From: Somniosus microcephalus
Taxonomy: Eukaryota
DNA length: 64,000 nucleotides
Assembly: GCA_052327205.1 (NCBI GenBank)
Contig: CM126224.1
Span: 23,560,001-23,624,000 of the forward strand
Reading direction: 5' to 3'
Part shown: positions 1,760 through 60,076 of the stretch, piece after piece
How the letters are laid out: every line of letters begins with the position of its first letter
How positions within the stretch are numbered: position 1 is the first letter of the stretch
Translations under genes and position numbers: made by a program
Notes under the pieces: generated by a model
Told to the model about the DNA's origin: nothing
Seen by the model: only the letters and a program-made list of their open reading frames with translations
The model's database searches: none

Positions 1760-1986
1760 TGTCATAAATCTCATCATCGAGAAACTACCTATGAAATAAC
1801 ACTGGACGGCCAGCTGGTGGCGCTGTCCAAGGAGTATAAATACTCGGGCGTTGGCCCCAGCTTGTCAGGGCTATTTTGTAAAGACAAGGAGCTAGTGGAT
1901 ACAACTAGACCTCCATGTTCTGAAACAAGTTGATTGAAGCCTTGCTTTATGCTCAAACCAAGTGCGTCGTGAGTTTTATTTCATCA
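1760..1986 (+). repeat. 5' LTR of Gypsy element 1
   Basis: Near-identical direct repeat of 6333-6559; TATAAA at 1835-1840. Confidence 0.95.
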
Positions 1987-2088
1987 ATTTAATCAACTTG
2001 ATATTGACTCCACGCTTTGGGTGATTTCGGGAACAGCCAGCTACGACTCGAACCATAGAAGGGAACTCAGACAAGTAATCGATCCATC

Positions 2089-5000
2089 ATGGAGAAACTA
2101 CTCAGGCCCGCCCGTCTTGACCTGGACCCGAATTCATTTACAGCTGCTAAGGTATGGAAACACTGGTATCGTACTTTTAGCAACTTCCTCAGGGTGTGTG
2201 GTGAAAATGTTCCTGATAAATTAGAAATACTTGCTAATTACGTATCCCCTCATGTGTTTGATTATATCGAAGACTGTGTAGACTATGACACCGCTATCCA
2301 AATGACACAGCAGCTATATGTCAAGTTCCCAAATGAAATTTTTTCTCGGCATCTACTAACCACAACTCGACAACAACCCGGGGAATCACTTGACAAATTC
2401 CTTCAGAAACTTAGCAGGCTCAGCAAGGATTGTAATCTTAAAGCTGTTACAGCTGAGCAGTACCAGGAGGAGTTAATTCGTGATTTCTTTATTAATGGGA
2501 TAAAGAGTAGCTTGCCTTTCAAAAGCTAGGCTTTATTAACCTTAAAAAACCAGCAGTACATGTTAAGCACCCAGTCTCAACCAAGCTGTAGAGAACTGAA
2601 TTTAAGATGGCCACCACAGGTCACATGGAATCAACTAACCAATAAGTTTACAGCATATATCTCAAGGCAGGAAAACAGGCAACCAATTACAATGCTTCTT
2701 ATAAAACAAGAATAATCACCACAGTCTCCCTTCATACGTCAGCGTCTGTTGGAGAATAAAACCCTCAAGTTACAGGCTGCCTATGACCAGGCATGTTCTC
2801 TGGACTTAGCAAAGAGGAATGCAGACACCTATCTTTTACCACGTGCATGGGCTGCTGCTATCTCTTTTAGTGACTCTTTCAATAGGCCTCGGGCAGAAGC
2901 CCTCACGGATGACGACGCCAACCCGGCTGATGACAACCCTACCCTAGAAACCTACACTGATGACGACCCCGCCCTAGCGGCATCTTGGCAATCTGGAAGG
3001 AAGTGTTTCTTCTGTGGAGGAGCGTTCCATTATAGGAAATTTTGTCCTGCTCGTAACGTGACCTACAATCATTGCAGCAAGAAAGGGCACTTTTCTAAGG
3101 TATGCCAGTCAAGAGCCACTGTTAGTAAGAAAGGCCACTTTTCTAAGGTATACCAGTCGAGAGCTCCTGTTAGTTTTGCAGCTATTATCTATAAAACTGC
3201 TCCTCCCCCAAAAGCCACTACTAGGGTTACAGCTGCAATCTATAAAACTGCTCCTCCCCCAAGAACCACTACTAAGGTTACAGTTGTCAAGGGTAAAACT
3301 GCCCCTCCTCCCATCACAGCTGTTTTTCCCCAAAGTTTGTCCCATGCAGCCATGAAGGTTTCGATAAATGGACACATTTTGAGTGCACTAATCGACTCAT
3401 GCAGCTCTGACAGCTTCATTAGTGAGCGGGCTGTCAGTAAGTTAAAACTGCGTATTTACCCCTCGGACAGGGAAATTGCAATGGCTCTGACGACTGACCA
3501 CCAATTCTTCTGGCTTTTGTCTTGTCGACCTTATTCTCAATGGCCGCACTTATTTCTCCACCCGGCTCGGGGTGCTCAAGAACCTATGCAGTGATGTGCT
3601 CCTGGGACAGAATTTCCAGAAACAACACAAAAGACTCACTTTCGAGTTTGGAGGGTCAAAGCCAGAGCTTACTATTTGCAAAGTACCATTTTGTGTGCTT
3701 TCGGCGGCTTCGCTCGACGAGTCCTCCTTGTTTGCCAATCTTTCCCCCCGATGTAAGCCCATAGTCACTAAATCACAACGTTTCAGCCGAGATGATCGAG
3801 CCGTTATCGAGGCAGAAATCTCTCGCCTTCTAGCCGACGGTATCATTCAGCCATGTTCATCTTCCTGGCGGGCTCAAGTCGTCATTGTTAAAAATCCTCT
3901 GAAGCAACACAAGAAACGTCTTTGCATTGCTTACTCGCCAACTATTAACCAGTATACCGACCTGGATGCCTACCCACTACCATGCATCGATGACTTGGTC
4001 AATAACCTTGCCAACTACAAGGTATTTTCAACTCTTGATTGAAAGAGCGCATATCATCAAGTACCGTTAAAGGACTCTGACAAAAAGTATACAGCCTTTG
4101 AGGCCAATGGTCCGCTTTACCAGTTTTATCGCCTTCCATTTGGGGTTACCAATGGGGTGGCCGTCTTTCAACGGGCAATGGATAGCCTAGTCAAACAGGA
4201 GAACTTAACAGACACTTTTCCATATCTAGATAATATCACCATTGCTGGTCATAACCAGAAGGAGCATGATGCCAATCTCCAGAAATTTTTTGACGTTCTC
4301 CGTCGTCGCAACTTAACCTTAAATGAGTCCAAATCTGTGAAATCAGTACCATCAGTCAACATCCTTGGCTACTGGGTGGGCAACGGTGTCATCAAACCGG
4401 ATCTGGAGCGACTTTGTCTGCTTCAGGAGCTCCCTCCCCCTACGAATCTCAGCTCTCTTCGGGCACTCGACATGTTCGCCTATTATGCGAAATGGATACC
4501 CCACTTCTCCGACAAGATCCAGCCCCTGCTTCACATAGTCATTTCCATTGGAGGCAATGGCTATTTCAGTTTTCAACCTCCTCAAGCGACAACTGGAAAA
4601 AGCCACGCTTCAGTCCATTGATGAAAATCTTCCTTTCGTGGTTGAGTGCGATGCATCGGATGTGACGATCTCTGCTACCTTGAATCAAGGTGGTCGACCC
4701 GTTGCATTTCTGTCCAGAACTTTGCAGGGTAGCGAGCTCCATTATCCTCCTGTCGAGAAGGAGGCTACGGCCATCATCGAAGTGGTACATAAATGGAGTC
4801 ATTTTCTCGCTCGTCACCATTTCACACTTATAACCTATCAGCGCTCCGTGGCCTTTATGCTGGATAACCGGAAACACACTAAAATCAAGAATAACAAAAT
4901 ACAACTCTGGAGGATGGAATTGGCTGCCTTTGGATACACCATACATTATCAACCTGGCAAAGAGAATGTGGCCCCGGATACCCTCATGCGGGCATTCTGC

Positions 5001-6291
5001 TCTTCTATGTCAACTTCAACTCTGGCGCATCTTCATACTGACTTATGCCATCCTGGCGTTACCCGTATGTTGCACTTTGTGCGATCTAAAAATCTCCCAT
5101 TTTCTACGGAAGATGTGAAAAGAACGTGCTCCTCCTGTAAAATTTGTGCGGAGTTAAAACTGCAATTCTTCTGTCCATCGGATGGCTCACTCATACACGC
5201 TATGCTGCCTATGCAGCGACTCAGCATTGACTTTAAAGGGCCATTGCCTTCCTCAACGCGGAACACCTACTTACTGACTATGGTGGACGAATATTCACGC
5301 TTTCCCTTTGCTTTTCCCTGTCCCAATATGCTTACTTCCACAGTGATCAAATGCCTTGATCAAGTCTTTTCCCTTTGCGGTACGGCCAATTTCATCCACT
5401 CTGATTGGGGTCCCTCCTTCATGTCAAGCGAACTCAAAAGTTCTCTCTCCCAACGAGGAATCGCCACAAGTAAAATGACACCGTACCATCCCATCGGTAA
5501 CGGACAGGTTGAGAGATACAATGCTATCATTTGGAACGCTGTTCATCTTGCGCTGAGGTCACGCAATCTACCAGACCAGCAGTGGGAAACTATGCTCCCT
5601 GACGCGTTGCATTCCATCAGGTCTCTCCTTTCTACTTCTACCAATGTCACACCTCACGAGCGGTTCTTCAGCTTCCAGCGTCGCTCCACCCATGGGATGT
5701 CTCTACCATCATGGTTGGCCGCTCCTGGTCCCGTGCTGCTCTGAAAATTCGTCCGATCGTCAAAAACCGATCCTCTAGTCGACGAGGTAGAACTTAGACG
5801 TCAATCCCACGTACGCCCACGTGCGGTACCCGGATGGCTGGGAGTCCACCGTTTCACTCTGGGACCTGGCTCCCTGTCCGGCCTGTTCCACGGAATCGAC
5901 TGATGGAGGGACCCGCAGGGATGAGGCCGACTCTCTGCGCTCCCCCAAGGATGACGCCCTACCTGGGACATCGAGGGCTCTGCCGGCTGCCCTGCTGGAT
6001 CCGCTCGGGGAGCCGAGCACTCCCCGTGGGATGGCCACCCTGGGCCAGGACGCCGGTCAATCTCCGGCTAACCAACGGGACGAAGCCAGTTCTGCGCCTG
6101 TGGGGACCCGCACCCAGAGTCACGATCTCCCCAGCCTCCCTCGGGTTGATCAGAGCAACACGGGCCCTGTCGATCCACCAGCACGGATCAAGCAGCCCAG
6201 GGACCAAGACACGGTCCGGGGAGACGTGCCTTCTGGCCATAAACAAAAATCTAAAAGACTGCAGCTATTCGTGGTCCGCCTAATCCGTTAA
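2089..6291 (+). pseudogene. Disrupted gag-pol polyprotein of Gypsy element 1
   Basis: Gag (RPARLDLDPNS...KHW), zinc knuckles (CFFCGGAFH..C), protease ALIDSCS, RT (DAYPLP, PFG, FPYLDN), RNase H (VECDASD, EKEATA), integrase (H..H..C..C, IDFKGP, VDEYSRF, NGQVER). Several stops and frameshifts plus an insertion in gag. Confidence 0.93.
2506..2723 (-). mobile_element. ~220-bp insertion in gag, probably a solo LTR
   Basis: Gag frame breaks at FINGIK and resumes at SPFIRQRLLENKTL. The insert reads TGTGG... at its minus-strand start and has a minus-strand AATAAA. No clean TSD. Confidence 0.5.
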
Positions 6292-6332
6292 GAGGAAGTC
6301 GTCAGATTTCCAAATCTTTTAGGCAGGAAGAA

Positions 6333-6559
6333 TGTCATAAATCTCATCATCGAGAAACTACCTATGAAGTAACACTGGACGGCCAGCTGGTGGCGCCATC
6401 CAAGGAATATAAATACTCGGGCGTTGGTCCCAGCTTGCCAGGGACATTTTGTAAAGACAAGGAGCTAGTGGATACAACTAGACCTCCATGTTCTGAAACA
6501 AGTTGATTAAAGCCTTGCGTTATGCTCAAACCAAGCACGTAGTGAGTTTTATTACATCA
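6333..6559 (+). repeat. 3' LTR of Gypsy element 1
   Basis: Direct repeat of 1760-1986, preceded by the PPT and followed by the TSD. Confidence 0.95.
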
Positions 6560-13760: not shown

Positions 13761-16700
13761 TTCTCCAGTTCTCAGCACATGCACAAGGACATCAGATCAG
13801 TCAGCATCTGTAAGTGGAAAAGATAAGTCAACATTTCAGGGGTGCAGAACCAAAAGTGTTTCAGCTTTCCCCAGAGAGTATGAACTTGTCTTTTACAGCT
13901 ATCGACTGACCTACTGTGCATGTCCAGCATATTCCATTCTTGCAGATCTCCAGTATTTGCAATTTCAAACAGAATTACATAATCACCACCAATTGGTTCA
14001 GACTCCACATGTACGCAGCAGATTACACCTCAATCCTGTTCCCTTCAACCTTTCACTTCAAGTCAGAATCTATGGCCTTAAACGCAAATTTCCAATTCCC
14101 CACATCAGTCATTTCTGTGGCTTCACTGAGGGCGATGGTCACTTTGTGAGAATCAACTGCAGCTTTGGGCTGTGGTTTTGGACCCACTAGTAATTGGGCC
14201 AAGATCCTTACACCTACATGAGTGGTGGGGTCAGTGAGGGAAAGAGAAATGTAGAAAATTATTCTGGAGTGGATTCGAACATTGGATGGTGCCACTTCTG
14301 CAACCAATCACCTCATGTCTCAAAATGTTCAATTTAGAGTGCATACCATTGGGTTTCTTTTATTTAATGTGGATTAAACCAGACAAGGATGTGGCAAGGC
14401 CACAATTTTTTCCCAATTGTGGTATTATTGTACAGTAGGAAGTATTCGAATAGTTAAATGCACATTTAGATCTAGATATTCACACTAGTCGGGCATGTGT
14501 GATCTCGGGGTTCTCTGCATTCTGTGGAAATACCTCACAAAACACTTCCACTCCTTCTGAATGAGTCACCGCTTTTTCTAGTAAACCTAAATAACTATTA
14601 GAAGTGGTTACTCTTGAAAAGAGAAGCTTAGAGAGTCAGAAGACTAGTACAGCATAACAATGCAGCAGATTATGCTAGATACCCTTGGCTGGTTCTTTTG
14701 ATAATCTCTCCATTCTGCCCCTCCCAATCTTCCAAGGCTCCTCGTCATGTGATCTCCTAGGCAACCACTACTATCTTTCCTGTGGTCAAAAAACAGTGGT
14801 CTATTTCCAGTTTCCAAACATTTTCAAATCCTTCTTCCTCCACCAGTAAAAGAATACATAAACATTAAAAAGAAATACCACATGGTGTTTCCCATTTCAG
14901 CACGATCGGTGAAGACCTGCATTTACTTCATTAAAAATCTGTCACGTGTAAAGAATCATCGATGACAAATTGCTGAGGTAAGAATTTACCTCGTGAACAA
15001 CGACAACCAACTAACTCAGAAGTGTCACAAACAAAAAAGTGAACGGTGTCTGCCCCACTCATGGGTGCAATAAAATATTTTGTCCACAAGTCTGGGGAAA
15101 ATGTAATTTAACCATATTAGAATTTTAATTTGGGCTACGTGGAGGGCGATTTGATCCAATCCATTTTTTCTTCAATAATTCATGAGAATGTTTATTATCC
15201 ACCGCCTGAAAATCTTGTTATCAGGAATGAAAGTTAAAAATTGCGGGCTGCGGCAACCTTAACTACAACATCTATCTATATATATAAATCGGTCGATCTG
15301 CCTGTCTGTCTGTCATTCTGTCATTCTGTCTGTCATCGCCTGTGCGTCTGTCGGGCTATGCGCTCGAAAGTTACAGGGCGTACCTACGCGCGCGTTACCT
15401 CCAAAGAAAGCTTACGCTTCCGAGACGGTTTTAAGCGTATTTACGTTTCGGCCGGGCTAAAATCCCGCCCGCGGTATCCCAAAAACCTTCAACGTTCCGC
15501 TCATTAGCATCTCATTATCCGCTCATTAGCGACAGAGTGACCTCGAGCTCGACCAATCGTACGCCGGGTTGCTGGCGTGTGCCGCCGGGCCAATCGGTGC
15601 GTGTGTGGCCGGGCCTTATCGTTCTGAACCGAGGTGAGTCGCCGCCATCTTGATTCCAAACTTTTCCTTTCTTTTTCCCGCTTTCTGCGTCTTAAAAAAA
15701 AACGTTGCTTTTAAAACACATATTGTTTTAAAAAAAAATGATTTAGAAAGTAATTAACTTATCTAATCTCATTAATTTTCCTACCTTTCCCCGTTTTTCC
15801 AGGTAGGCCTAGAAGCCTCAGCGTCTCCTCCGCACCCACGCCCGAGCTAGGCACCTCCCGGCCCCACTCGAAGGCTGGAGGGCCGAGCCTCAGCCCAGCG
15901 CCACTAGGGTGCGCGCGCAGCAGGAGCTGAGATGCGCTGTCTCTCTCTGGATCGGCCGGGGGGCGGGGCTTGCTGAGCGTCAAGCGTTACCCTGGCAACC
16001 CCGGCCGGCCGTCTCGCACAGCCGCAATCGGCAGTCTTCACCTCGGGGGGGGGGTGGGGGCCGCGACCCTCGGGGGGGGGCCGCGCGCGCAGCAGGAGCA
16101 GCTGAGACGCGGCGTCTCTCTCTCTCTCTGGCTCGGCCCGGGGGCGGGGCTTGGTCAGCGTCACGGTTACCCTGGCAACCGGGCCCGCCGGCCGAGCCAG
16201 AGAGAGACGCCGCGTCTCAGCTCCTGCTGCGCACGCAATCGGCGGTCTTCACCTCGGGGGGCGGAGGGCGGCGCGCAACCCTCGGGGGGGGGGCCGCGAC
16301 CCTGGGGGGGGGGGCCGCGACCCTGGGGGGGGTGGCCGCGACCCTCGGGGGGGGCCCCCCGCCCTCCCTTCCCCCCGCCCCCTTTTCCCCCCCGCCTTCC
16401 CTTCCCCCCTTCCCCCCGCCCTCCCTTCCCCCCTTCCCCCCGCCCTCCCTTCCCCCTCCCTTCCCCGCCCTCCCCCCCTTCCCCTCCCCTCCCCCCCTCC
16501 CCTCCCCTCCCCTCCCTCTCTTCCCCCCAGTCGCTCTCTCTCTTCCCCCCAGTCGCTCTCTCTCCTCCCCCCAGTCGCTCTCTCTCTTCCCCCCAGTCGC
16601 TCTCTCTCTCTCTTCCAACAACAACATGCCCTCGAAAAAGCCTCGGCACCACCGGGCACTTCAGCTAGTCTATATATATAAATCGGTACATCTGTCTGTC

Positions 16701-19700
16701 TGTCTGTCATTCTGTCATTCTGTCTGTCATCGCCTGTGCGTCTGTCGGGCTATGCGCTCGAAAGTTACAGGGCGTACCTACGCGCGCATTACCTCCAAAG
16801 AAAGCTTACGCTTCCGAGACGGTTTTAAGCGTATTTACGTTTCGGCTGGGCTAAAATCCCGCCCGCGGTATCCCAAAAACCTTCAACGTTCCGCTCATTA
16901 GCATCTCATTATCCGCTCATTAGCGACAGAGTGACCTCGAGCTCGACCAATCGTACGCCGGGTTGCTGGCATGTGTCGCCGGGCCAATCGGTGCATGTGT
17001 GGCCGGGCCTTATCGTTCTGAACCGAGGTGAGTCGCCGCCATCTTGATTCCAAACTTTTCCTTTCTTTTTCCCGCTTTCTGCGTCTTAAAAAAAAACGTT
17101 GCTTTTAAAACACATATTGTTTTAAAAAAAAATGATTTAGAAAGTAATTAACTTATCTAATCTCATTAATTTTCCTACCTTTCCCCGTTTTTCCAGGTAG
17201 GCCTAGAAGCCTCGGCGTCTCCTCCACACCCACGCCCGAGCTAGGCACCTCCCGGCCCCACTCGAAGGCTGGAGGGCCGAGCCTCAGCCCAGCGCCGCTA
17301 GGGTGCGCGCGCAGCAGGAGCTGAGATGCGCTGTCTCTCTCTGGCTCGGCGGGGGGCGGGGCTTGCTGAGCGGCCGTCTCGCACAGCCGCAATCGGCGGT
17401 CTTCACCTCGGGGGGGGGGGGGCCGCGACCCTCGGGGGGGGGCCGCGACCCTCGGGGGGGGGGGGCCGCGCGCGCAGCAGGAGCAGCTGAGACGCGGCGT
17501 CTCTCTCTCTGGCTCGGCCGGGGGGCGGGGCTTGGTTAGCGTCACGGTTACCTTGGCAACCGGGCCCTCCGGCCGTCTCGCACAGCCGCAATGTTGAAGC
17601 CAGCTCAGGAGGCCGGTGCTCGGAAGATCGCGTCTCCGGAGTTCGGTGCTTGGTTGGTGGGGGGGGGCGAGCCTCGGGGGTGGGTGGGTGGTGGGCGAGC
17701 CTCGGGGGTGGGGGTGGGTGGTGGGTGAGCCTCGGGGGTGGGGGTGGGTGGTGGGCGAGCCTCGGGGGTGGGGGTGGGGGTGCGAGTCTCGGTGGGGGCC
17801 AACCTCTGGAGTTCGGGGGGTGGGGATCAGGGGGCTCAGGAGTTTGGGGGGATGGGGATCAGGGGGCTCGTGCACTATCCCCTTCCCCTCCCCTCCCCCC
17901 TCCTCTCTCCTCCTCCCCCCTCCTCCCCTCCCTCCCCCCGCCCCCTCCCCCGCCCCTTCTTCCCCCTCCTCTCTCCTCCTCCCCCCTCCCCTCCCCCCTC
18001 CCTCCCCCCCCTTCTTCCCCCTCCTCTCTCCTCCTCCCACCCGCCCTCCCTCCCGCCCTCCCCCCCTCCGCCCGCCCTCCCCACCCCCCTCCCTCCCCCC
18101 GCCCTCTCTTCCCCCCTCCCCTCCCCTCCCCCTCCCCTCCCTCTCTTCCCCCCAGTCGCTCTCTCACTTCCCCCCAGTCGCTCTCTCTCTTCCCCCCAGT
18201 CGCTCTCTCTCTTCCCCCCAGTTGCTCTCTCTCTCTCTTCCAACAACAACATGCCCTCGAAAAAGCCTCGGCACCGCCGGGCACTTCAGCTAGTCTATCT
18301 ATATATATAAATCGGTACTTCTGTCTGTCTGTCTGTCATCGCGTGTGCGTCTGTCGGGTATGCGCTCGAAAGTTACAGGGCGTACCTACGCGCGCGTTAC
18401 CTCCAAAGAAAGCTTACGCTTCCGAGACGGTTTTAAGCGTATTTACGTTTCGGCCAGGCTAAAATCGCGCCCGCGGTATCCCAAAAACATTCAACGTTCC
18501 GCTCATTAGCATCTCATTATCCGCTCATTAGCGACAGAGTGACCTCGAGCTCGACCAATCGTACGCCGGGTTGCTGGCGTGTGCCGCCGGGCCAATCGGT
18601 GCGTGTGTGGCTGGGCCTTATCGTTCTGAACCGAGGTGAGTCGCCACCATCTTGATTCCAAACTTTTCCTTTCTTTTTCCCGCTTTCTGCGTCTTTAAAA
18701 AAAACGTTGCTTTTAAAACACATATTGTTTTTTAAAAAAATGATTTAGAAACGAATTAACTTATCTAATCTCATTAATTTTCCTACCTTTCCCCGTTTTT
18801 CCAGGTAGGCCTCGAAGCCTCGGCTTCTCCTTCGCACCCAAGCCCGAGCTAGGCACCTCCCGGCCCCACTCGAAGGCTGGAGGGCCGAGCCTCAGCCCAG
18901 CACCGCTAGGGTGCGCGCGCAGCAGGAGCTGAGGCGCGGCGTCTCTCTCTGGCTCGGCTGGGGGTCAGGGCTTGCTGAGCGTCAAGCGTCACCCTGGCAA
19001 CCGGCCCCCCGGCCGTCTCGCACAGCCGCAATCGGCGGTCTTCACCTTGGGGGGGGGGTGCGTGACCCTCGGGGGAGGTGCGCGACCCCTCGGGGGGGGT
19101 GCCGCGACCCTCGGGGGGGGGGGCCGCGACCCTCGGGGCGGGGGCCGCGACCCACGGGGGGGCCCCCCACCCTCCCCCCCGCGCCCCACCCCCCCCGCCC
19201 CCCCCTCCCCCTCCACCCCCCTCTCCCTCCCCCTCCACCCCCTCCCCCTCCACCCCCTCTCCCTTCCCCTCCCCTTCCTCCCCCTTCCTCCCCCCCTCGC
19301 CCTTCCCCCCCTCGCCCTTCCCCCCCGCCCTCCCTCCCTCCTCCCCTCCCTCCCCCCCCCCTCCCCCCCTCCCAGTCGCTCTCTATCCCCCCCCCCAGTC
19401 GCTCTCTCTCCGCCCCCCCCCAGTCGCTCTCTCTCTCGTCCAACAACAACATGCCCTCGAAAAAGCCTCGGCACCGCCGGGCACTTCAGCTAGTCTATAT
19501 AGATAAAAGGATACTTCTGTCTGTCATTCCGTCTGTCTGTCTGTCTTGAATAAACTCTAAAGTTATAGAGCATACCTACACGTGTGTTACGTCAGAAGAA
19601 AGCTGACGATTCCAGAACCGTCCTAAGCGTATTTACGTTTCGGCCAGACAAAAATTGCGCCCGCGGTGTCCAAAAAACGTTCAACATTCCGCTCATTATC

Positions 19701-20554
19701 CGCTCATTAGCATCGAGTGACGTCGAGGTCGACCAATCGTACGGCGGGTTCCTGGCGCATGCGGGCGGGCCCTCCTACGGTCGAGTGATGGGACGATTGA
19801 CCAATCCTACGCTTCAGTGACCTGACGGTCCACCAATCGGTGCGTGTGTGGGCGGGCCTTATTGTTCTGAACCGAGGTGAGTCGCCGCCATCTTGATTCC
19901 AAACTTTTCATTTCTTTTTCCCGCTTTCTGCGTTTCTTTTCAAATCTACATTTCCAGCAAAAAAAAAGTTGCTTTTAAAAGACAAATTGTTTTTAATTCA
20001 TTTGTAAATCTTTTGTCTAACCTCTATAATTTTCCTACCTTTCACCATTTTTCCAGGCCTCAAAGCCTGGGCATCTGTTGACCAGCCACACCCGAGCTAG
20101 GCGTCTCCCGTCGCGATCGACAAAAGGCCAGCAATCGCCGCCATCTTTGTGAAGGCTGGAGGGGGCGGGCCTGAGCCGAGCATCGCCACCGCCGCCATCT
20201 TAGTGAAGGCGGGCGGGGCGGGAGTCAGCGTCGGCGTCATCTTCTGCCCGGAGCGCGACTTGAGTCCGGCCGGGACTCACGCGGTAGGTTGCGCGGCGGC
20301 GTCTCTCTGGTCTTGAAGCCGGCTCGGGCGGGGGGGCGGGGCTCGGGAAGGCGGAGCTCGGGAGGGCGCGCGCGCGGGGGTCGGGAGAGCGCAGCGGGAG
20401 GGCGGGGCTCCGGAGAGCGGTAGAGCGGGAGGGCGGGGCTCCGGAGGCCGGTGCTCGGGAAGGCGGAGCTTGGGAAGGCACGCGCGCAGGGCTCGGGAGA
20501 GCGCAGCGGGATGGCGGGTCTCTGGAGATCATGGGGGCGAGCCTCGGGAGATCG

Positions 20555-20760
20555 GGGGTGGCGGGGCTCGGGACATCGGGGGGCGGGGCTCGGGACATCG
20601 GGGGGCGGGGATCGGGACATCGGGGGCGGGGATCGGGACATCGGGGGGCGGGGATCGGGACATCGGGGGGCGGGGATCGGGACATCGGGGGCGGGGCTCG
20701 GGACATCGGGGGGCGGGGCTCGGGACATCGGGGGGCGGGGCTCGGGACATGGGTGGCGGG
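20555..20760. repeat. ~21-bp GC-rich minisatellite (GGGGGCGGGGMTCGGGACATC)n inside Helitron unit 4
   Basis: About 9 tandem copies. Confidence 0.9.
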
Positions 20761-20785
20761 GCGCGGGGCTCGGGGACTCCCTCCT

Positions 20786-20988
20786 NNNNNNNNNNNNNNN
20801 NNNNNNNNNNNNNNNNNNNNNNNNNNNNNNNNNNNNNNNNNNNNNNNNNNNNNNNNNNNNNNNNNNNNNNNNNNNNNNNNNNNNNNNNNNNNNNNNNNNN
20901 NNNNNNNNNNNNNNNNNNNNNNNNNNNNNNNNNNNNNNNNNNNNNNNNNNNNNNNNNNNNNNNNNNNNNNNNNNNNNNNNNNNNNNNN
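20786..20988. other. Assembly gap (N run)
   Basis: Run of n; may hide more array units. Confidence 1.
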
Positions 20989-22249
20989 CACCCCTCTTCC
21001 CTCCTCCCCTTCCCCCTCCCCTTCCCCCCTTCCCCCTCTCCCTCCCTCCCCCCCTCTTCCCCCCAGTCGCTCTCTCTCTTCCCCCCAGTCGCTCTCTCTC
21101 TTTCCCCCAGTCGCGCTCTCTCTTCCCCCCAGTCGCTCTCTCTCTCTTCCAATAACAACATGCCCTCGAAAAAGCCTCGGCACCGCCGGGCACTCCAGCT
21201 AGTAATTAATAATTGGTCATCGCGAGTTCAGTGGGGCCAATTACTCTCGTGCTTATGTGCTGTTGCGAAGTGGCTCTGGAAACTCAGTGCTCAGGTGACC
21301 CAGTGGATGTAAATCCAGAATCAGACTGGCCATTTCACTGCATCCATTCAGAAAGTAGCGTCACACACTGCACGCCAGCTGCAGGGCAAGTCTGCTGCAA
21401 AGCCCATTTCAAAAAGTTCCAACATGGTCCATTCGGCTGCCCGAGGATTCTTTAGTAACTCGGTTTCAACCTTGTCACTAATGTTAGAATCATCTTCCTC
21501 GCCAACTCTCTCATTGAAAATGAACCAGCGTTTGGGAGCGGTTCACAGACACAAAAGCAAACACACGCACACCTCGACAGCTCTGTTGTTGCTGGGCAGA
21601 GAGTAATGAGAGCCAACAGCATAACTCACGTCCGCTGGTTGTGTTTCGCACTCTGCAAGTTACAAGCCAGGGACCCGTGGTATAACGGATCCCTCGAGTC
21701 TTTTTGGCACTCTTACAAGAACAGAAATAAACATTCCCAGCCTTCGTTACAAGGCATGCGGCCCTGGTTTAGTGGTTCAGTTAGACGCTAACAGTTAGAC
21801 GCTAATGATCGAATGGAGCCACTTGAAGAGGAGCAGGATGCTCCCCTGACCAATATTCCCCTCTCGCTATAAACAGATCAACTCATTCAGTCAAATTATT
21901 GTAGTATATGGGATCTTGCTGTGTGAAAGCGGCTGCTGTGTTTGCCTACACAATAGTCAGAGTACTGCATCGTGCATGAAACATTTCAAAATGAGGAATG
22001 TGATGAAGTACTCGGTAAACGCAAGGCTCTTATGCGTTTTCACAGTCATCATTCTATAACGGACAATGTCTCCAATACTCCATTCACACACACCACAAGT
22101 CAGAATGAAACCAAACCTTGCAGTAGAACCTCTAGGATCTTTGACCACAACCCTCAAGGATGGTCCTGGAGTCTCCAGGAATTAAAGAGTAATCTCCAGC
22201 AAGCAACCCAGGAGATAAATCGTAGGAGCATTAAAAAAAAAGTTTCTCC

Positions 22250-42571: not shown

Positions 42572-45424
42572 TGTAGGTATTGTCGTATACCTATCCAATA
42601 ACGGAGGTCGACTCGGAAGAACAACAAACAGGTTTTTAATGTTGGATTAGATGAACTACAGCAGACAACGTGGATAGATGCAGGAGAGCTGTGGAACAGG
42701 TCTTTCCCCAGCGGGGACACCACGAGGACTTGCGACGTGACGTCATCGCGTTTGCCCGCGCTTGGGGTGGTCACGTGACTCATGTGATGACGTTATCATG
42801 TCTACCCGGCACCCGGCATTGGAGCTGGCCGTTGCGGCCGAAGTCGCGGGAGCGGGAGGCTGAGCTGGGCCGGTGATTGCCGCGGGAGCGGAGGCCGAGC
42901 TGGGCCAGCTCGCGCCTGGGTGTCACGTGATGCGCGACGTGACATCATTGTGTTAGGTCTCACTCTTAAAGGGGCAAAGGCCCGAACAGGTAAACTATAC
43001 ATATACATAGGTAAGTTAAAGGGAATTATGTATCATAAGTAAGGGACACCCGGTGGTACCGCTAGATGCGCCGCCCCAGAATTTGCTTTAATGAACGACA
43101 AAAGGTGAGGTAGTCTGAAGAGCCTGTCCGAACGACTCCTGCAGTCTCGAGACGAAGACTGCTGGGTGGCTGGCGGTCCGGTGGGCGATCGTGCTTGGCC
43201 TGCCGTAATGACGATGGATGTCCGAAGGTTTCGGCAGTCGTGCTGTCTGGACTTGGCGGGCGAGGTCGAAAGGTGCTGGTCGTGAGCGGATCCTTGCATG
43301 CGTCGTGGCGAATAATACGTATCCAGCCGTGCGAAGGACCGTGGCGTCATGGCGAATAAAATGTATTCAGCCATGCGAAGGACCGTGGAGACATGTGACC
43401 TCTGCAGCCCGTGGTTCAAAGCGGGCGCCGGGGTGAAACAGCTGGCCGCGTCATAGTGACTGGCAGGTTGGGCAGACGCGGACCATGGCTCCGTCATTGT
43501 TGGAAGAAGGTCCTCAGTCTGATGAAATCTGCAGGAACGCCGAACGGGCGATCCAGGAGGAAATAACGTGGGTCTTGGCAGGTCGGTGGACTCGCCGACA
43601 GGTGAGCGAACTCTTTGGCAGTCGGAAACGCACGGAACGGTGCGTGCCGTAGTGCTACTATGGCAACACAGAAGCGAGTGAACCGTTGCTGCGTTGATCA
43701 GTGATCGGTGATGACAGCAACTTTCGCGTGGCTGATCGCGGCCGCGGGATACCCGTTGAACCCGCCCTCGATGTTTGCAGCATCAGTAGAGGTTCGTGCT
43801 TGTTGAGGGGAACACTGTAGAGAGGACGGCAACGCTTCGAGTTGTTGTTGATTTAGGGGGAAAACTGCCGGGAGGGCGGCAACGCTTCGCTTTTGCGCCG
43901 AAAAGCGTGGTAGAAAACACAACCAGCAGGCTGACGGGCTGGTGCGTCATCGGCAGGGAATGAGTCTTCGTGTTTCACGAGGGATGGGTCCTCGTGGTTC
44001 GCGAGGAGTGCGTCCTTCTGGTTCGCGAGGGATGGGTCCTCATGGTTCGCGAGGGATGGGTCCTCGTGGGTCGCGAGGGATGGGCCCTCGTGTGTCGCGA
44101 GGAGTGCGTCCTCGTGGTTCGTGAGGAGCGAGTCCTCATGGCATCTCCGCGGGGGTGCGCTCCGATCTTGTGGGCCCGAAAACCTGCGGAACCCACGCTT
44201 GGAGGGATGTATACTTGCTGTTGCGTTGGGAGATGTCGTGGAGGCGGACGATCCATGAGGCGGTAGAGCTGACGAATATGGAGAACTCGTTGGTCTGCGC
44301 CGCATCGAAGTTCTTGGCGAACGGGGTTTCTACCTGAAGAAAGCACGAGGGCGGTTGCTGCTCCCTGAATTGCGGTAGTGACAGTGAAACGGCTGATGCT
44401 TCCATGGCGTGCTTCTTTTGTGAAAATTGTTCACAAAAATCGGGGTCCGGCTGCGTTACGTTTGTGAAAAACGGGATCACCTTCAGGCTGCGCTTCCTTT
44501 GCGAATACGTTCCCAAAGACAGGGCCGCCATACGTCGTTGGCCAGCAATTGTAGGAATTGGTGTTCGTCGGTTGTTGCTTGTCGGTTGTTGTTCACCGTG
44601 CTCTTCCTCTGTGAAATCGTTCACAGAGATGGGGTTCAGGCTGTGCGCTGCTTCCGTGAAAAATGTTCACGGAAAACGGGGTCACCAATTGTAGGTTTTG
44701 ATGAATTCCCGTCCTCACGTCGTTGGGTCACCAATGTAGGAATTGGTGGTCGTCGGTTGTTGTTCGCCGGTTGTTGTTTGTCGGGCTCTTCTTCTGTGAA
44801 AGCGTTCACATAAATTCGGCTGTGCACGTCGGTCGTCTGTGAAGACGAGGTTCAGGCTGTGAGCTTCTTCCGTGAAAAACGTTCACGGAGGCGGGGTCAC
44901 CAATGTAGGTATTGTCGTATACCTATCCAATAACGGAGGTCGACTCGGAAGAACAACAAACAGGTTTTAATGTTGGATTAGCTGAAATACAGCAGACAAT
45001 GTGGATAGATGCAGGAGAGCTGTGGAACAGGTCTTTCCCCAGCGGGGACGCCACGAGGACTTGCGACGTGATGCCATCGTGTTTGCCTGCGCTTGGGGCG
45101 GTCACGTGACTCACGTGATGATGTTATCACGTCTACCTGGCACCCGGCATTGGAGCTGGCCGTTGCGGCCGAAGTTGCGGGAGCGGGAGGCCGAGCTGGG
45201 CCGGCGATTGCCGCGGGAGCGGGAGGCCGAGCCAGGCTGGCGATTGCCGTGGGAGCGGGAGGCCGAGCTGGGCCGGCTCGCGCCTGGGTGAGTCACGTGA
45301 TGTCATTGCGTTAGGTCGCACTCTTTAAGGGGCAACGGCTCGAACAGGTAAACTATACATATACATAGGTAAGTTAAAGGGAATTATGTATCATAAGTAA
45401 GGGACACCCGGAGGTACCGCTACA
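42572..45424 (-). mobile_element. Non-autonomous CsRn1-like Gypsy element (gag and integrase remnants, no RT)
   Basis: LTRs 42572-43066 and 44904-45424; 4-bp TSD CCCG; minus-strand PBS TGGTGACCCC complementary to the tRNA-Trp 3' end. Gag remnant AVSLSLPQF..QQP..F.QVE..F and CVFYH knuckle. Internal region only ~1.8 kb. Confidence 0.85.
43965..44140. repeat. 24-bp tandem repeat (about 7 copies, HEDPSLAN in the minus frame)
   Basis: Repeated GTCCTCGTGGTTCGCGAGGGATGG-type units. Confidence 0.85.
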
Positions 45425-46242
45425 CCCGTCCATATTTTACATCAGGCTCACCCCTAAAAAAGGGAATAAGAGAAAGACCTGAAAAGCCCTTAGCACAGAC
45501 GGTGGAGAGGAGAGCCATACAAGAGTGGAGCTGGTCTAACACTCTTCCGGGAGTGGAATCAACCCATTCTTGGAGGTTCTAGACGAGAGGGATAAAGGCC
45601 ATAAGCCGGAGAACTGTTTGCACATGCCAGCCGTCTGTCTGTCCGATTGGGGCCGGTACCAGCTGCTTGTCACAGTCATATGTTTTTGCTGTATAACTAA
45701 TGTGTTATATTCCATCTTAAGCTCTGATTAAACACAATGGCCTAGAAATTCAGTTGGGCGCGGCAGCCGTTAGCGCCTTAGGAGGAGTAGATTTCGAGCG
45801 CTAGGCGCTTAGTGGCCGGGCGCAGCGCGATCTGCGCCTCGCCCCAACTTCAGTACACATTTAGCGCTGGCGCAAAGTCTTAGCGCGCCCTGCTGCGCGC
45901 GCACATCATGACGTCATTTGCTAGTGCAACGCCTTTTGTGCGCCCCGAACCGGAACTTCACTCGCGCCGGCCCATTGTGCGCCGGGCGGCCCGAGCGACT
46001 GTGAAGTGGAACGGTACACAGCCCAGCCAGGCCGCGGGGAGCGCAAATTAAAGGGCACTTACCCAGCAGTATAAAGGCCAGCCATTTTACAGCATTCACT
46101 CTTGTGCAACGGTTTTTTGGACAGAGACCAAGGAGGAGAGTTTACTGGTTTGGACCAACACTTGGACAGGTATTTTTGGCTCAGGCCAGAGCTTACCAAT
46201 TATCTTTGCCTTCATTCAGAGCTCAGTGTTTGCCAGCATATA

Positions 46243-47388
46243 ATGGGGGCTGCATTGGGTGGCAACGCTGAATTTCAGCCTTATGCCAGAAGGGCTTACA
46301 GACGCCGTGAGAGAGTGGCAGCCCTGGCTAGACGCAGAGGGGGCAACAGGCGTCGCCAACTGAGGCCTTACCCACGCAGGGTATACCGCCAGCAGACCTC
46401 CTATCTGACCATGTCTGCCGCGATGTGTGTTAGGAGGCTGCGATTCCGAAGGGAGGTGGTTACAGACATCTGCCGGCTGCTTCAGAGAGATCTGCAGCCA
46501 CAGCTGATGCGCAGGACGTCTCTGTCGGTGGCAGTGAAGGTGATGGTGGCTCTCAACTTCTATGCCTCCGGCTCCTTCCAATCCGCTACTGGGGACATCG
46601 CTAACATCTCCCAGTTCGCCGTGCATTGCTGCATCCGCCAGGTGACCGAAGCCCTTTTCAGAAGGAGACATCAATTCATCTCCTTCCCCATGACCCTGGA
46701 CAAGCAGCAGCAGCGTGCAGTGGGGTTTGCAAGAATAGCGGGCTTCCCCATGGTGCAGGGCGCCATTGACTGCATGCATGTGGCTTTGCGGGCACCTCTT
46801 GAGCATGCCGAGGATTACCGCAACCGGAAGGGCTACCATTCCCTCAATGTACAGCTGGTGTGTGACCACAGGCAGCGCATCCTAGCTGTCAATGCCCGCT
46901 ATCCAGGCAGCAGCCACGATGCCTTTATCCTGCGACAGACAACTGTGGCTGACATGTTCCAGGCACAGCCTCCCCCAAGAGGATGGCTTATCGGGGACAA
47001 AGGCTATCCTTTGTGTACCTGGCTCATGACCCCGCTCCGCGCGCCCACGACCCCTGCTGAAGAGGCATACAACGAGAGCCATCAAGCGACGAGGAACCTC
47101 ATAGAACAAACAATCGGCGTGCTCAAGCAACGGTTCCGCTGTCTCGATCGCTCCGGGGGAGCCCTCCAGTATTCGCAGGATCGAGTCTCCCAATTCGTCG
47201 TCGTTTGCTGCATGCTGCACAACCTGGCTATCCGCAGGACTCAGGTACTGCCACCTCACGTTGGACCACCACCTCAGGAGGAGGAGCAGGAGGAGCATGA
47301 GGACGACGAGGACGAGGAGTACCAGCCCAGGAGGGACGCACAAGGTCCAAGGGCCGCCCGTCAGCGGCTTATTGAACGTCACTTCTAG
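46243..47388 (+). CDS. Harbinger DDE transposase (HARBI1-like), intact 381-aa ORF
   Basis: GAIDCMHV, NRKGYHSLNVQLVCD, YPGSSHDAFIL, GDKGY, IEQTIGVLKQRFRCL, CCMLHN. TATAAA at ~46070. Confidence 0.93.
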   Translation: MGAALGGNAEFQPYARRAYRRRERVAALARRRGGNRRRQLRPYPRRVYRQQTSYLTMSAAMCVRRLRFRREVVTDICRLLQRDLQPQLMRRTSLSVAVKVMVALNFYASGSFQSATGDIANISQFAVHCCIRQVTEALFRRRHQFISFPMTLDKQQQRAVGFARIAGFPMVQGAIDCMHVALRAPLEHAEDYRNRKGYHSLNVQLVCDHRQRILAVNARYPGSSHDAFILRQTTVADMFQAQPPPRGWLIGDKGYPLCTWLMTPLRAPTTPAEEAYNESHQATRNLIEQTIGVLKQRFRCLDRSGGALQYSQDRVSQFVVVCCMLHNLAIRRTQVLPPHVGPPPQEEEQEEHEDDEDEEYQPRRDAQGPRAARQRLIERHF

Positions 47389-47764
47389 GCCCCCCGTCAG
47401 GGAATGGCTTGTGCCAATGATAGAACATGATTGCAGCCGTTCCGCAAGCCCTCAGCCGGTTAAGGCAACAAACACTTCAAAGATCAAACATGGACAATGT
47501 GAATAAATAAAATGGTTTATTGTACAAACTCTGGGCCCTTCCCACATGAAAACCAAAAACAGACGAAACCCCCAAAAAACACTCAAACACATTACTCGCT
47601 CCCACAACCTGGAGAGGATTAACAAAATAGGGCAACTAAAATGGCCGTCATTCTCGGCCTTCGTCAAAAACAAACATCACATCATCGGCCTTCAAAAAAC
47701 AAACATCCAATTCTCGGCCTCAAGAAACAAACACAAATGGCCACACATTCGACTATTTGGCCCG

Positions 47765-49812
47765 CTAGGGCGATGCCTTGGCCATCTTTGGGTGGCCCCT
47801 GCCCGCCCTGCTGCTCCGCCTCAAAGTAAGGCCATTGGCTGCTGCAAGGCTGGGGGCAGGCTCCTGAGGGGCACATGTCGTGACGGCAGATGCCCTTGGG
47901 GGTCGGCCTAGTCGAGGTCTGGCCGTCGAGCGGGCGGCTGTTGATTGCTGCAGCTGTGGCTGGCCAGCATCAGTCACTGCAGCAGCTCCTGGCAGCTCCA
48001 CTGGGGGACTGGCAGTGGCGGCTGGAGGAATGGCAGAAGCTGGCGGATGGCAGGCGCTCGCTGGTCACCTGAGACACTGGCACTCGCCCGGGCCAGCACT
48101 GCAGCATGCGCACCAATCTGCCGAGGGACAGACCGCTGTGCTGCTGCAGCGCGCCGGGTGGCCTGGCGATGCCTGGCTGACACAGCGAGTGTGGCAGCAG
48201 TGAGTGCCCGTGTTGACCTGTTCACTGACCGCATCAGAGCAGCCAGTGACTGGACGGCACCACTGATCACCTGGCCAGTCGCTGACAGAGCTGCCCCGAA
48301 TTCCGCCCGACTCGCTGCCTGATCTGCCCGGTATTCCGCCCGACTGGTGGCCTCTGAGGGCCCGAACTCGGCCACACTCCGAGAGAGGGAATCGATGGAC
48401 TCAGGCAACCGTGCCACTGCCGCCATGAGCTCCGTGTGCCGGCGCTCCGAGTCCGCGGACAAGTCTTCGAGGCGTTCCATCTCCTCGGCGAAGAGCATCT
48501 CCTGACTGGAGGCCGGACTCTCCCTCTGGGGAGAAGGCCGCCGAGCTGGCCGACCCTTCCTGCGTTGCTGGAGGCCGCTGGGCCCAGCAATTGGACTCCC
48601 CTCCGACACTTCCCCCCTCTGGGGAGAAGGCCACCGAGCTTCCACCCCCCTCCCGCCTTTCTGCAGCCCGCAGGTCCCAGGAGCTCCCCTCCCCTTCGAC
48701 ACTTCCGCCACGCTGCCCTCCAGGGAAGACGTGTCCCCTACATTGGCCTGGGTGGCCGCGGCTGAGGGTTCCCCTGATGGGCCGCCTTCCTCTTGCTCCT
48801 CCTCCTGCTCCTCTTCGGAGGGTCTGTCACTGGCAAGTTCAGGGACCTCCTCTTCACCATCTGAAAGCAGGAAGGCACAAGAGTAGCTTTAGAGTGAGGA
48901 GAGGGCGTCAGTGCGGGATGCATGAGTGGTGGCATTCAGCGCATTGGTCGGACAGTGGCAAAGGATGTAGATCTGATGCGCAAGTGGGACGAGAGAGGTG
49001 CAAAAGGTGATGTCCTTACCATTGCTGCCCAGAACAGGGTCGGCATCTCCACATGCAACGGGCCCAATCACCCGGCCACCCATGAGGCGCTCCACGCGAT
49101 GTTGCAGGTCGGTGAGTGGCTGGATATGGGGTCGGCCTCCCCCGGTCGCAGTCCGGCTCTTGCGATTATTCGCCAGCTTGGCCTGCAAGAGAAAGGACGG
49201 CCTCTAAGTACAGTGTGTCGCCGTGATCTTGTGTGCACTGCCTCCCATGGTGGAATAGCCTGGCCAGTGTGTCGCCATGATCTGGTGTGCACTGCCTCCC
49301 ATGGTGGAATAGCCTGGCCAGTGTGTCGCCATGATCTGGTGTGCACTGCCTCCCATGGTGGAATAGCCTGGCCAGTGTGTCGCCATGATCTGGTGTGCAC
49401 TGCCTCCCATGGTGGAATAGCCTGGCCAGTGTGTTAAGTGCAGAATGTGCAATTGATGCTCATGCCTGTCCCATAGCTGCTGGATGAAGGCTGGCCATTA
49501 GAGCTTTCAGGTCCCTTTGCCCATAATGTGAGGTGCACATGCAAGGATGAGGAGGTCACTGGAAAGGGTACTCACCCTGACAATGCGTGTGAGGTCATTT
49601 AACTTTTTGCGGCATTGGGCACCGCTCCTGGGGACGTCGCTGTTGGCTGACAGCTTGCTGGCGACATGCCTCCAGGCTCTCCTGTAGACGCGGACCGTCG
49701 CCTTCTTGCCATTGTCCGGGTACAAAACATGGCGCCTCTTCTCCACAGCAGCAATCAGCACACTCAGATCACGCTCTGAGAAGCGCTGCGCACGTTCACG
49801 GGCCTTCTCCAT
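47765..49812 (-). CDS. Harbinger Myb/SANT-like DNA-binding protein, 3 exons (49812-49576, 49182-49020, 48860 to 47974 or 47765), probable frameshift near 48060
   Basis: RFSERDL..L..AVEKRRHVLYP...AWRHVA...RSGAQCRKKLNDL; donors GTGAGT and GTAAGG, CAG acceptors, compatible phases. The homologous C-terminus (GRPP...LRRSSR) lies in another frame. Confidence 0.85.
49211..49434. repeat. 54-bp tandem repeat (about 4 copies) in intron 1 of the Myb-like gene
   Basis: CAGTGTGTCGCCATGATCTGGTGTGCACTGCCTCCCATGGTGGAATAGCCTGGC repeated almost identically. Confidence 0.95.
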
Positions 49813-54730: not shown

Positions 54731-55930
54731 AATCAACATTTCATTGTGCAGTACACACGTCTGCTGCATATATGACAAATAAAAAAAAAATTGAATTGAA
54801 TTGAATTGAAAGGGTAGTCACTTGGGTGTTATGTTGTGTTTATTTTTGAAGTGCCATCAGCTGCTTGTTGTGATAAAAAATTCTGCTGGCAAACTGTTGA
54901 AGTTGTGGCTGGCATCATTTCGCAAATGGGACTTCCACATTGAGGGCTTAGAGTGACTTGCAATTGTCAGTATGGTGGTCAGAGTGATAGAAATTCACAG
55001 GTTCTTGTCCATTGTCGATGCTCTGGTAAGAAGGTGTGAAGCAAAAGAATTTGATTGTGCAGGCTAAGCAAATCTGGCCAACATGAGCACGTCCCTTGCA
55101 TCCCGGGCAGCAATGTTGTCGCGCTGGCGCCTTCTGGCCTGTACAGTTTCAGGTGGGTGAGCAGCAGCTTGGCGCTCCTATTGTTGCTGCTGCTGTTGTT
55201 CATGGTTCTGCTGCTGCCACGGCTGGTCTTCGTCCAAATCTGATGTCCAGGAGGAAAGGAAATAAATGGTTCCCATGCTTCTGGAATATGCCTCAGTTGA
55301 GGAAGTGCTCAGTCAAGGTGGGGAGAGGGGTTTCCCAGGAGGTCACACTGGAGATGGGTATCAGGCTCCAAACTTCCACAACAATGAGTAGGCCTGCTAA
55401 AAGTTCCCCCAGACCTGAGACAACAAAGTTCTGCCACCTGCAAATGATCTTTGGTGAAAACTCCTTTTTAATGGTGGAGCTGCAGCTGTTAGTAAGCAAT
55501 CCACTTGAAGCCACCAGGATTAACTGGCGTGTTCCAGAGGAGATGTGCAGGATGGGGGAAATGTGCTAAAATCAGAAAGGCCTCACAAAATGGCATTATA
55601 GAGGCAATTAACTGGTTGTTAAGGGCCTTAAGGGCCTATCCTGTTATGTATTGTGTGTTCTATTGTGTGTTCTCCTCCCACCTGTGGTGGCGCTGTTACA
55701 GGAGATAAATGGTTGGGTGTTCTCTGTTAAGTTTAGCTCTCTTTGTTCGGAACTCTCCAGAACTTCCTTTCCTTCCAATAAAGCACTTCATGTTTGAATC
55801 TCTGAGTTCTGAGTCCTAAATTGTGTCTAGGTAGAAAGGTACCGACACAACAAGTGGCAACGAGGAGCGGATGAATCTGCGTACGTTACGGGTGCAGTGA
55901 GTAAACAGAAAATTTAATTTGAAACGTGAG

Positions 55931-59917: not shown

Positions 59918-60076
59918 GCTTAGTGACTTACCCACAAGACTGGGGCAGAATAAACCCCAGGGTAAAGTCAGGGTTTGAGGCAGTCTACCTCTACCCTAGG
60001 TTCGTTGAGTGCATTGAAAGTAACTTACCTGTTGAGGAATAATGTGGACCTTCCATTTAAGAGGGGAGGAAATGTT

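What the first reader, a model, noticed from the sequence alone, without database searches (positions are those of the whole stretch)
15271..21202. Helitron concatemer with exact CTAG|TC junctions and mixed subfamilies
Seen: at least 4 units are fused with no intervening host base (junctions 16668/9, 18293/4, 19493/4), and only the outer ends obey the A|T rule. Units 1-3 are very similar at the 5' end but differ in their GC-rich internal repeats. Unit 4 has a clearly diverged 5' half. Known: G|T junctions are expected from rolling-circle multimers or circle junctions. Inference: a pure concatemer would be homogeneous, so the heterogeneity suggests repeated insertion at existing Helitron ends or co-integration of different circles, i.e. 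a nascent macrosatellite.
Basis: partly seen in the sequence, partly recalled or inferred. Interest (0 to 1): 0.7.

Follow-up and report, generated by a model that had tools for sequence, protein, structure and literature searches.

The report
Helitrons stacking at their own fronts
Four related rolling-circle jumping genes (Helitrons) sit nose-to-tail at one spot, as about a fifth of this family's copies do across the genome, most likely because new copies keep landing exactly at the front end of older ones rather than arriving as one long chain; such stacks are known, and what this adds is genome-wide evidence for the order in which they likely grow.

Summary
Real: four non-autonomous Helitrons (15271-16668, 16669-18293, 18294-19493, 19494-21202) join at exact CTAG|TC junctions inside an A|T site. 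The locus is not special: 2,236 of 11,761 family 3' ends form this junction, and RepHel elements share the ends. It is not a homogeneous concatemer: median neighbour distance is 8%, 3 of 83 pairs are within 1%, and chains are short, so 'nascent macrosatellite' is unsupported. A resident's 5' boundary (host A, element T) is itself an A|T site and fits the family's target motif A|T-N5/6-ATR (84% of non-junction ends). Stacks are polar: young lineage upstream only 15 times, downstream only 2. Split 5' ends leave TCTA scars (11 of 20 vs 22 of 98). The motif alone predicts under 1% of junctions, not 19%, so extra homing to the left end is inferred. Against: same-family neighbours are in excess, old residents are not hit more often, and units 1-2 are close kin. 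Du 2008 proposed this route for one maize pair; the scan noted such stacks before in this and another genome.

The parts
15271..16668 (+). Unit 1: non-autonomous Helitron, young lineage, 5' start with an extra TCTA; lowest CpG decay (0.00)
   Evidence: nearest dispersed copy 0.5% away, unit 2 1.3% away
16669..18293 (+). Unit 2: non-autonomous Helitron, young lineage; carries a 290-nt block (17590-17880) absent from units 1 and 3 and present in 2 of 163 dispersed full units; CpG decay 0.095
18294..19493 (+). Unit 3: non-autonomous Helitron, young lineage, 5' start with an extra TCTA; CpG decay 0.073
19494..21202 (+). Unit 4: non-autonomous Helitron of an older subfamily (14.9% from unit 3, 5.1% from its nearest dispersed copy), with a 22-nt minisatellite and a run of N; CpG decay 0.132; inferred first resident
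15270..15271 (+). Left boundary A|TC; inferred re-usable insertion site of the stack
   Evidence: 73 of 75 outer 5' ends are preceded by A
21202..21216 (+). Right boundary CTAG|T and host flank that fits the target motif T-N5/6-ATR
   Evidence: 99.8th percentile of background AT sites
16640..16668 (+). 3' terminator of unit 1: 18-nt GC hairpin, spacer, CTAG (same in all four units)
15271..15655 (+). 5' module shared with RepHel-coding elements (95.9% over 367 nt to G000:C9 element); holds CCAAT boxes, a splice-donor-like site at 15633/4 and a YY1-like motif at 15642-15651 (motif names recalled, function untested)

Best explanation
The array is four non-autonomous Helitrons joined head to tail, likely built by separate insertions in which each newcomer landed at the A|TC front boundary of the copy already there, so that the stack would have grown towards its 5' side with the diverged unit 4 as the likely first resident. 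Shown: termini, junctions, subfamily mix, genome-wide frequency, target motif, polarity, split starts. Inferred: RepHel in trans cuts between host A and the T of a resident's left end (the same bond it cuts to start transposition), joins the incoming 5' TC to the host A and the incoming CTAG to the resident's T. This gives CTAG|TC without breaking the A|T rule and rebuilds an A|TC site in front. Cuts a few bases inside the TA-rich start give split ends and the extra TCTA seen on units 1 and 3. Because the motif alone explains under 1% of junctions, the left end must attract RepHel further, most likely by RepHel binding to left ends of its own subfamily or by open promoter chromatin there; a minority of neighbours (roughly one in ten) likely arose by local duplication.
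For: Frequency: 2,236 of 11,761 ends (19.0%) are followed by TCTAT; 11,585 (98.5%) by T. Target motif: 71 of 75 de-duplicated host flanks fit T-N5/6-ATR vs 7.4% of 20,438 background AT sites; the stricter ATAW form 58 of 75 vs shuffle mean 9.1, maximum 20; genome-wide 10,047 of 11,585, 83.5% after removing junctions, vs 1,698 for a shifted control. The element's own start fits it (98.4th percentile). Heterogeneity: median pair distance 8.1%, 45 of 83 pairs from different clusters, 8 of 83 closer to each other than to any dispersed copy; in 18 young-young pairs the partner ranks at a median 46th percentile of family members. Polarity: young lineage upstream only 15, downstream only 2, both 29, neither 34 of 80 pairs; upstream closer to the young family in 34 of 41 pairs over 8% apart, and 14 of 16 when both units have the searched 3' end. 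Age is independent of position: CpG decay 9.3% vs 14.3%, p=4e-6. Reciprocal check: of 18 G-preceded young starts among the first 100 listed, 15 have a young unit upstream, none an old one, 2 host CTAG, 1 unresolved (two read from positions only); 9 of the first 100 ends in front of young starts carry the C marker that 54% of all ends carry. Split starts: about 190 sites (294 rows with duplicates); the unit in front carries an extra TCTA in 11 of 20 scored vs 22 of 98 controls, p=0.006. Three of 10 RepHel loci fetched are followed directly by a non-autonomous unit (one was chosen for that). Clean empty sites exist for a repeated LINE-like target.
Against: Old residents are not hit more often than young ones: G precedes 18 of 100 listed starts in both classes and exact junctions are 14.7% of young vs 8.4% of old starts. 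Same-family neighbours are 32 of 80 vs 10.9 expected, and 9 of 32 such partners are in the top 5% of relatives. Over all pairs with both ends found there is no order (30 of 53, p=0.41), nor in paired 3' mismatches (15 vs 16 of 47). The marker test in front of old starts is weak (43 of 100 T vs 18 of 67, p=0.049; vs 9 of 24, p=0.65). In this window units 1-3 are close kin: only 1 of 63 dispersed young copies is closer to unit 2 than unit 1 is, and none is closer to unit 3 than unit 1 is, so duplication of units 1-3 with later interior change is not excluded. Nine of 20 split cases lack the scar, and 16 of 36 could not be scored. Junctions were found through an exact upstream 15-mer, which favours young upstream units. 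No empty or shorter allele of this locus was seen.
Confidence: 0.72

Rival explanations
1. Rolling-circle concatemer or local tandem duplication of one element, followed by divergence (for units 1-3), added to an older unit 4.
For: Units 1-3 are 1.3-2.9% apart vs a 5.0% median for random young pairs; units 1 and 2 share two minority variants; 3 of 83 sampled pairs are within 1% and 9 of 32 same-family partners are near-closest relatives; circles with CTAG|TC junctions are shown for Helraiser (PMC4778049, passages).
Against: Unit 1 has closer dispersed copies (0.5%); each interior matches dispersed copies better than its neighbours; the three 5' tags are each common genome-wide; most pairs genome-wide are unlike; it cannot make split starts or polarity.
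Confidence: 0.15
2. Different circles join into mixed multimers off the chromosome and integrate once.
For: Exact junctions outnumber near misses 20 to 8 among 100 unselected ends; same-family excess fits copies that are mobile at the same time.
Against: Predicts no order, but cross-lineage pairs are ordered 15 to 2; neighbours differ in age; old units were not found in front of young starts.
Confidence: 0.07
3. A few founder dimers were amplified as units by read-through of the 3' terminator, inflating the junction count.
For: Terminator bypass is shown for Helraiser (PMC4778049, passages); one array is present twice on C1.
Against: Among 83 pairs only that one duplicate matches at both units within 2%; counts at 3% and 4% (4, 17) do not exceed shuffles (3.6, 22.3). 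Power is low: 83 of at least 2,236 junctions.
Confidence: 0.05
4. Assembly artefact or collapsed repeat.
For: GC-rich low-complexity tracts and a run of N in unit 4; no laid record spans the array.
Against: 2,236 like junctions on both strands of many contigs; units carry distinct variants; contigs of two samples run from the left flank into unit 1 and one from unit 4 into the right flank, though by under 31 letters.
Confidence: 0.01

Closest known systems
Adjacent head-to-tail maize Helitrons at r1 (Du et al. 2008, PMC2267711; passages seen)
   Same: CTAG|TC junction between unlike elements; the authors name canonical insertion at host A + resident T as one of two routes.
   Different: One pair, order left unclear there; here thousands of junctions with a measurable 5'-ward order, a target motif and split starts.
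Tandem Helibat junctions in Myotis (Pritham and Feschotte 2007; paper not held; known only through PMC2267711 and PMC5876387 passages) and plant centromeric arrays (Xiong et al. 2016; seen only as citations)
   Same: [quoted passage not shown]
   Different: Read there as rolling-circle tandem copies; here most neighbours are unlike and ordered by age.
FoHeli self-insertion in Fusarium oxysporum (PMC5148889; passages)
   Same: Insertion at or near the 5' end of another copy; multiple 5' termini explained by self-insertion.
   Different: Non-canonical Helitrons, few cases, no frequency or order measured in the passages seen.
Helraiser/Helibat, canonical Helitron1 (PMC4778049; passages and section 10)
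   Same: TC...hairpin-CTAG ends, A|T insertion without duplication, AT-rich preference strongest 3' of the site, preference for promoters and open chromatin.
   Different: The text seen reports no spaced motif and no local hopping (701 events); the figure logo could not be seen.
TE dimers by double insertion in Drosophila (McGurk and Barbash, 10.1101/158386; passages)
   Same: Insertion preference makes tandem dimers during bursts, a possible seed for satellites.
   Different: There the target-site duplication rebuilds the target; here the element's own 5' end does, with no duplication.

Membership tests
Canonical Helitron (Helitron1/HLE1; definition in PMC11417382, passages) | 5' TC start | tested here: met
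   all four units
Canonical Helitron (Helitron1/HLE1) | 3' hairpin followed by CTRR | tested here: met
   18-nt hairpin (-5.4 to -6.7 kcal/mol) 11 nt before CTAG end in all four units
Canonical Helitron (Helitron1/HLE1) | Insertion between A and T without target-site duplication | tested here: met
   11,585 of 11,761 ends followed by T; 73 of 75 outer starts preceded by A; filled and empty copies of one repeated site agree
Canonical Helitron (Helitron1/HLE1) | Autonomous partner with Rep and helicase sharing the termini | tested here: met
   150 scored PF14214 matches; 8 of 10 loci fetched end in the family's 3' motif; C9 element 95.9% to unit 1 over 367 nt, C5 element 80.5% to unit 4 over 410 nt; PF14214, PF05970, PF21530 in both
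Canonical Helitron (Helitron1/HLE1) | Transposase falls in the HLE1 clade | not tested
   no tree of RepHel proteins was built
Helitron2/Helentron (HLE2) | Terminal inverted repeats and T|T insertion | tested here: not met
   A|T sites and TC/CTAG ends; no inverted match between the ends in the window self-comparison at E 1e-8 and 60 nt, which would miss very short repeats
Rolling-circle concatemer | Neighbouring units identical or nearest relatives | tested here: not met
   8 of 83 pairs nearest relatives, 3 within 1%; units 1-3 of this window are the borderline case
Satellite/macrosatellite | Long array of homogenised units | tested here: not met
   chains of 2 to 6 mostly unlike units among 56 sampled; regions of 10 kb would cut longer arrays
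Active Helitron | Extrachromosomal circles or insertion polymorphism | not testable with these tools
   genomic junctions mask circle junctions in short reads; no long reads

The most novel reading that the evidence does not exclude
This vertebrate Helitron family homes to its own left end: RepHel reads targets with the same A|T-N5/6-ATR signature it reads at its left terminus and prefers left ends of its own subfamily at least twentyfold, and probably some hundredfold, beyond what that motif predicts, so each insertion rebuilds the target and stacks grow one way, leaving an age-ordered record of subfamilies. Many Helitron tandems read as rolling-circle products would then be serial insertions.
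Probability: 0.45. Interest if true: 0.65.

Novelty: new variant of a known kind. Interest (0 to 1): 0.45.

Why it matters
Head-to-tail Helitron junctions have been cited as evidence for rolling-circle concatemers (PMC5876387, passage), while Du et al. 2008 left the insertion order open for one unlike pair. With over 2,000 junctions in one genome the alternatives become testable, and here they favour serial, polar insertion. If the homing step holds, it says how RepHel picks targets (mimicry of its own left end), offers a safe-haven strategy for the element, gives a direct way to order subfamilies in time, and suggests that a Helitron left end could act as a landing pad for Helitron vectors. 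The locus itself is one of thousands and shows no sign of a host function.

Tried and rejected
Macrosatellite reading: rejected (short, unlike chains). Prediction that old residents collect more junctions: failed. Nearest-neighbour distance as an age proxy: weak (47 vs 34, p=0.18; Wilcoxon p=0.02); family-median age ordered only 15 of 25 pairs. 3' module mismatch against a young reference was biased and was redone against each family's majority. Dimers copied as units: not seen beyond one duplicate. Coding role of the units: only low-complexity frames. Public runs: no RNA holder listed; contigs did not span the array; two RNA runs gave family-level reads on both strands over the 5' module, none on the flank and no listed splice joint, which says nothing about this copy. 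Literature searches that found no report of a spaced target motif or measured polarity: 0 papers; listings; passages read of PMC5876387, PMC12001565, PMC4778049, PMC13286980, PMC2267711, PMC3288121, PMC5148889, 10.1101/158386, PMC11417382; one search listed two shark-related papers, not read. Pritham and Feschotte 2007 and the RepHel structure paper were not held; Xiong 2016 and the 2015 Helitron review were not looked up; figures and supplements were not seen and may hold target logos. Absence from print is therefore not established.

Full report
Observation. The four units and three exact CTAG|TC junctions are at the stated places, between host A (15270) and host T (21203), with no duplicated flank. 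Units 1-3 are 96-98% alike over about 600 nt of the 5' module and about 86% alike to unit 4; all share a 3' module ending in an 18-nt hairpin and CTAG. Interiors are different GC-rich minisatellite mixes. A 203-base run of N lies inside unit 4, so the unit count is a minimum if it is a gap. The array is CpG-rich (observed/expected 0.72-0.97 vs 0.38-0.47 in flanks).

Family. In the own genome (6.45 Gb) the exact 15-nt 3' end occurs 11,761 times (control 2), 11,585 times before T and 2,236 times before TCTAT. A Pfam search found 150 scored RepHel matches. Of 10 such loci fetched, 8 end in the same 3' motif; the element at C9:119848900-119836138 matches unit 1 at 95.9% over 367 nt and the one at C5:124118529-124110646 matches unit 4 at 80.5% over 410 nt; both encode Helitron N, PIF1 and Pif1 2B domains. 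The units are thus non-autonomous canonical Helitrons. That the host is a shark or ray comes from earlier scan notes and was not tested here.

Sample. I fetched regions around 87 of the first 100 listed junctions on C1 (72 of 85 planned regions) and around all non-junction ends among the first 100 listed ends (68 regions). These gave 218 aligned 5' cores and 83 clean neighbour pairs including the three of this window; 80 after dropping three pairs of a duplicated array.

Target site. Among 100 unselected ends, 72 face host DNA, 20 an exact Helitron start and 8 a start shifted by a few bases. Host flanks carry a spaced motif: 71 of 75 de-duplicated flanks fit T-N5/6-ATR against 7.4% of background AT sites. 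I first saw the motif in part of this sample, so the independent test is genome-wide: 10,047 of 11,585 ends fit, 83.5% after removing junctions, against 1,698 for the same motif shifted 7 nt. One LINE-like repeat position was hit 8 times in 90 flanks, and its empty form occurs cleanly in many loci. The element's own start fits the motif (98.4th percentile of background, 43rd of real targets). A resident's front is therefore a canonical A|T target. The motif is not enough, however: it predicts 0.02-0.08% of insertions there, 0.9% under generous assumptions, against 19% seen.

Neighbours are mostly unlike. Median distance 8.1%; 45 of 83 pairs fall in different clusters; 3 are within 1%; 8 are closer to each other than to any dispersed copy. 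In 18 young-young pairs the partner ranks like a random family member (median 46th percentile; 3 in the top 5%); over all 32 same-family pairs 9 are in the top 5%. Same-family pairing is 32 vs 10.9 expected. Three RepHel elements are followed directly by short units. Whole dimers were not copied as units beyond one duplicate.

Order. The two clusters with the TCGGT-type start are younger by CpG decay (9.3% vs 14.3%, p=4e-6) and by 3' module divergence from each family's majority (1.1 vs 2.0 of 43, p=4e-5). They lie upstream only in 15 pairs and downstream only in 2 (p=0.002); in pairs over 8% apart the upstream unit is closer to the young family in 34 of 41, and in 14 of 16 where both units have the searched end. 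Searching from the 5' side, 15 of 18 G-preceded young starts have a young unit in front and none an old one (my count). A 3' marker (C in 4 of 52 young-tag units, 49 of 67 old units, 54% of all ends) stands in front of only 9 of the first 100 young starts (my count). In the window CpG decay runs 0.00, 0.095, 0.073, 0.132 from unit 1 to 4. Results against: no order among close relatives (30 of 53; 15 vs 16 of 47); old starts are not hit more often (18 of 100 in both classes; 14.7% vs 8.4%); the marker excess in front of old starts is marginal (43 of 100). Targeting thus favours residents of the same or a contemporary subfamily.

Split starts. About 190 sites (294 rows with duplicates on one strand) join CTAG to a start that lacks its first bases. 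Of 36 fetched, 22 gave a clear upstream start and 20 could be scored: 11 carry an extra TCT(T)A in front, vs 6 of 36 solos and 16 of 62 units before exact junctions (p=0.006 pooled). This is what insertion inside the resident's start leaves and what a circle junction cannot. The extra TCTA on units 1 and 3 may be such scars or inherited ones; the window cannot tell.

This locus. Unit 4 belongs to an older cluster and is the likely first resident. Units 1-3 are close kin (1.3-2.9% vs 5.0% for random young pairs), so duplication is not excluded for them, but each interior matches dispersed copies better than its neighbours and unit 2 has a block the others lack. Public contigs support both boundaries by under 31 letters and do not span the array.

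Mechanism. Inferred: RepHel cuts a resident at A|TC, the bond it cuts to start transposition (established for Helraiser, PMC4778049 passages), and an incoming copy is joined there. Extra attraction may come from RepHel binding to the left end or from open chromatin: Helraiser is enriched 6.9-fold in CpG islands and 14.2-fold in open chromatin (section 10), and the 5' module looks like the RepHel promoter (motif names recalled; earlier notes say the same). Helraiser showed no local hopping, which speaks against simple re-insertion beside the donor.

Comparison and verdict. Du et al. 2008 named this canonical route for one maize pair and left the order open; self-insertion near 5' ends is described in Fusarium; bat and plant tandems were read as rolling-circle products. 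The scan noted such stacks in this genome and a microsporidian before. The arrangement is known and the locus is one of thousands; the frequency, motif, order and scars were not found in my searches, which missed key papers. New variant of a known kind, interest 0.45.

Noticed in passing
G000:C1, e.g. L061, L142, L143, L146, L180, L196, L138: One position in an abundant LINE-like repeat is a recurrent Helitron target (8 of 90 host flanks); empty copies are common, one also in this window.
   Followed up: partly
G000:C1:16956294-16963064 and 17045241-17053554 (L066-L068): The same array occurs twice 90 kb apart with 3 and 5 units, two of them 99% alike, and starts after a host CTAG rather than A: likely duplication plus unequal exchange, the only satellite-like growth seen.
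   Followed up: partly
G000:C1:109325457-109346614 (L232, L233, L094); C11:63779220-63765438; C10:102411608-102401441: RepHel-coding elements sit directly in front of non-autonomous units.
   Followed up: partly
G000:C5:124114328, C9:119840093, C2:27027509, C1:136620253: RepHel frames open for 1,888-2,221 residues, so the family may be recently or still active; their N-terminal 970-1,110 residues hit no Pfam family in the two scanned.
   Followed up: partly
L061, L089, L097, L135, L173: A second 3' end type (C-run before AGCTAG) also forms junctions with this family's starts, so the junction count is a lower bound.
   Followed up: no
window 15540-15805 and equivalents in each unit: CCAAT boxes, donor-like and acceptor-like splice sites and a YY1-like motif (names recalled) in a CpG-rich module shared with RepHel elements up to 15655; RNA reads of the family cover it on both strands.
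   Followed up: partly
window 42572-49437: GC-rich stretch (55-65%) with a 500-nt internal repeat, 24-, 36- and 54-nt tandem repeats and open frames up to 437 codons; probably another mobile element.
   Followed up: no
window 55640-62551: 213-nt direct repeats 98.6% alike flank open frames of 224-457 codons: looks like a young LTR retroelement.
   Followed up: no
window 1760-6559: 227-nt direct repeats 93.8% alike flank open frames up to 401 codons: looks like an older LTR-type element.
   Followed up: no
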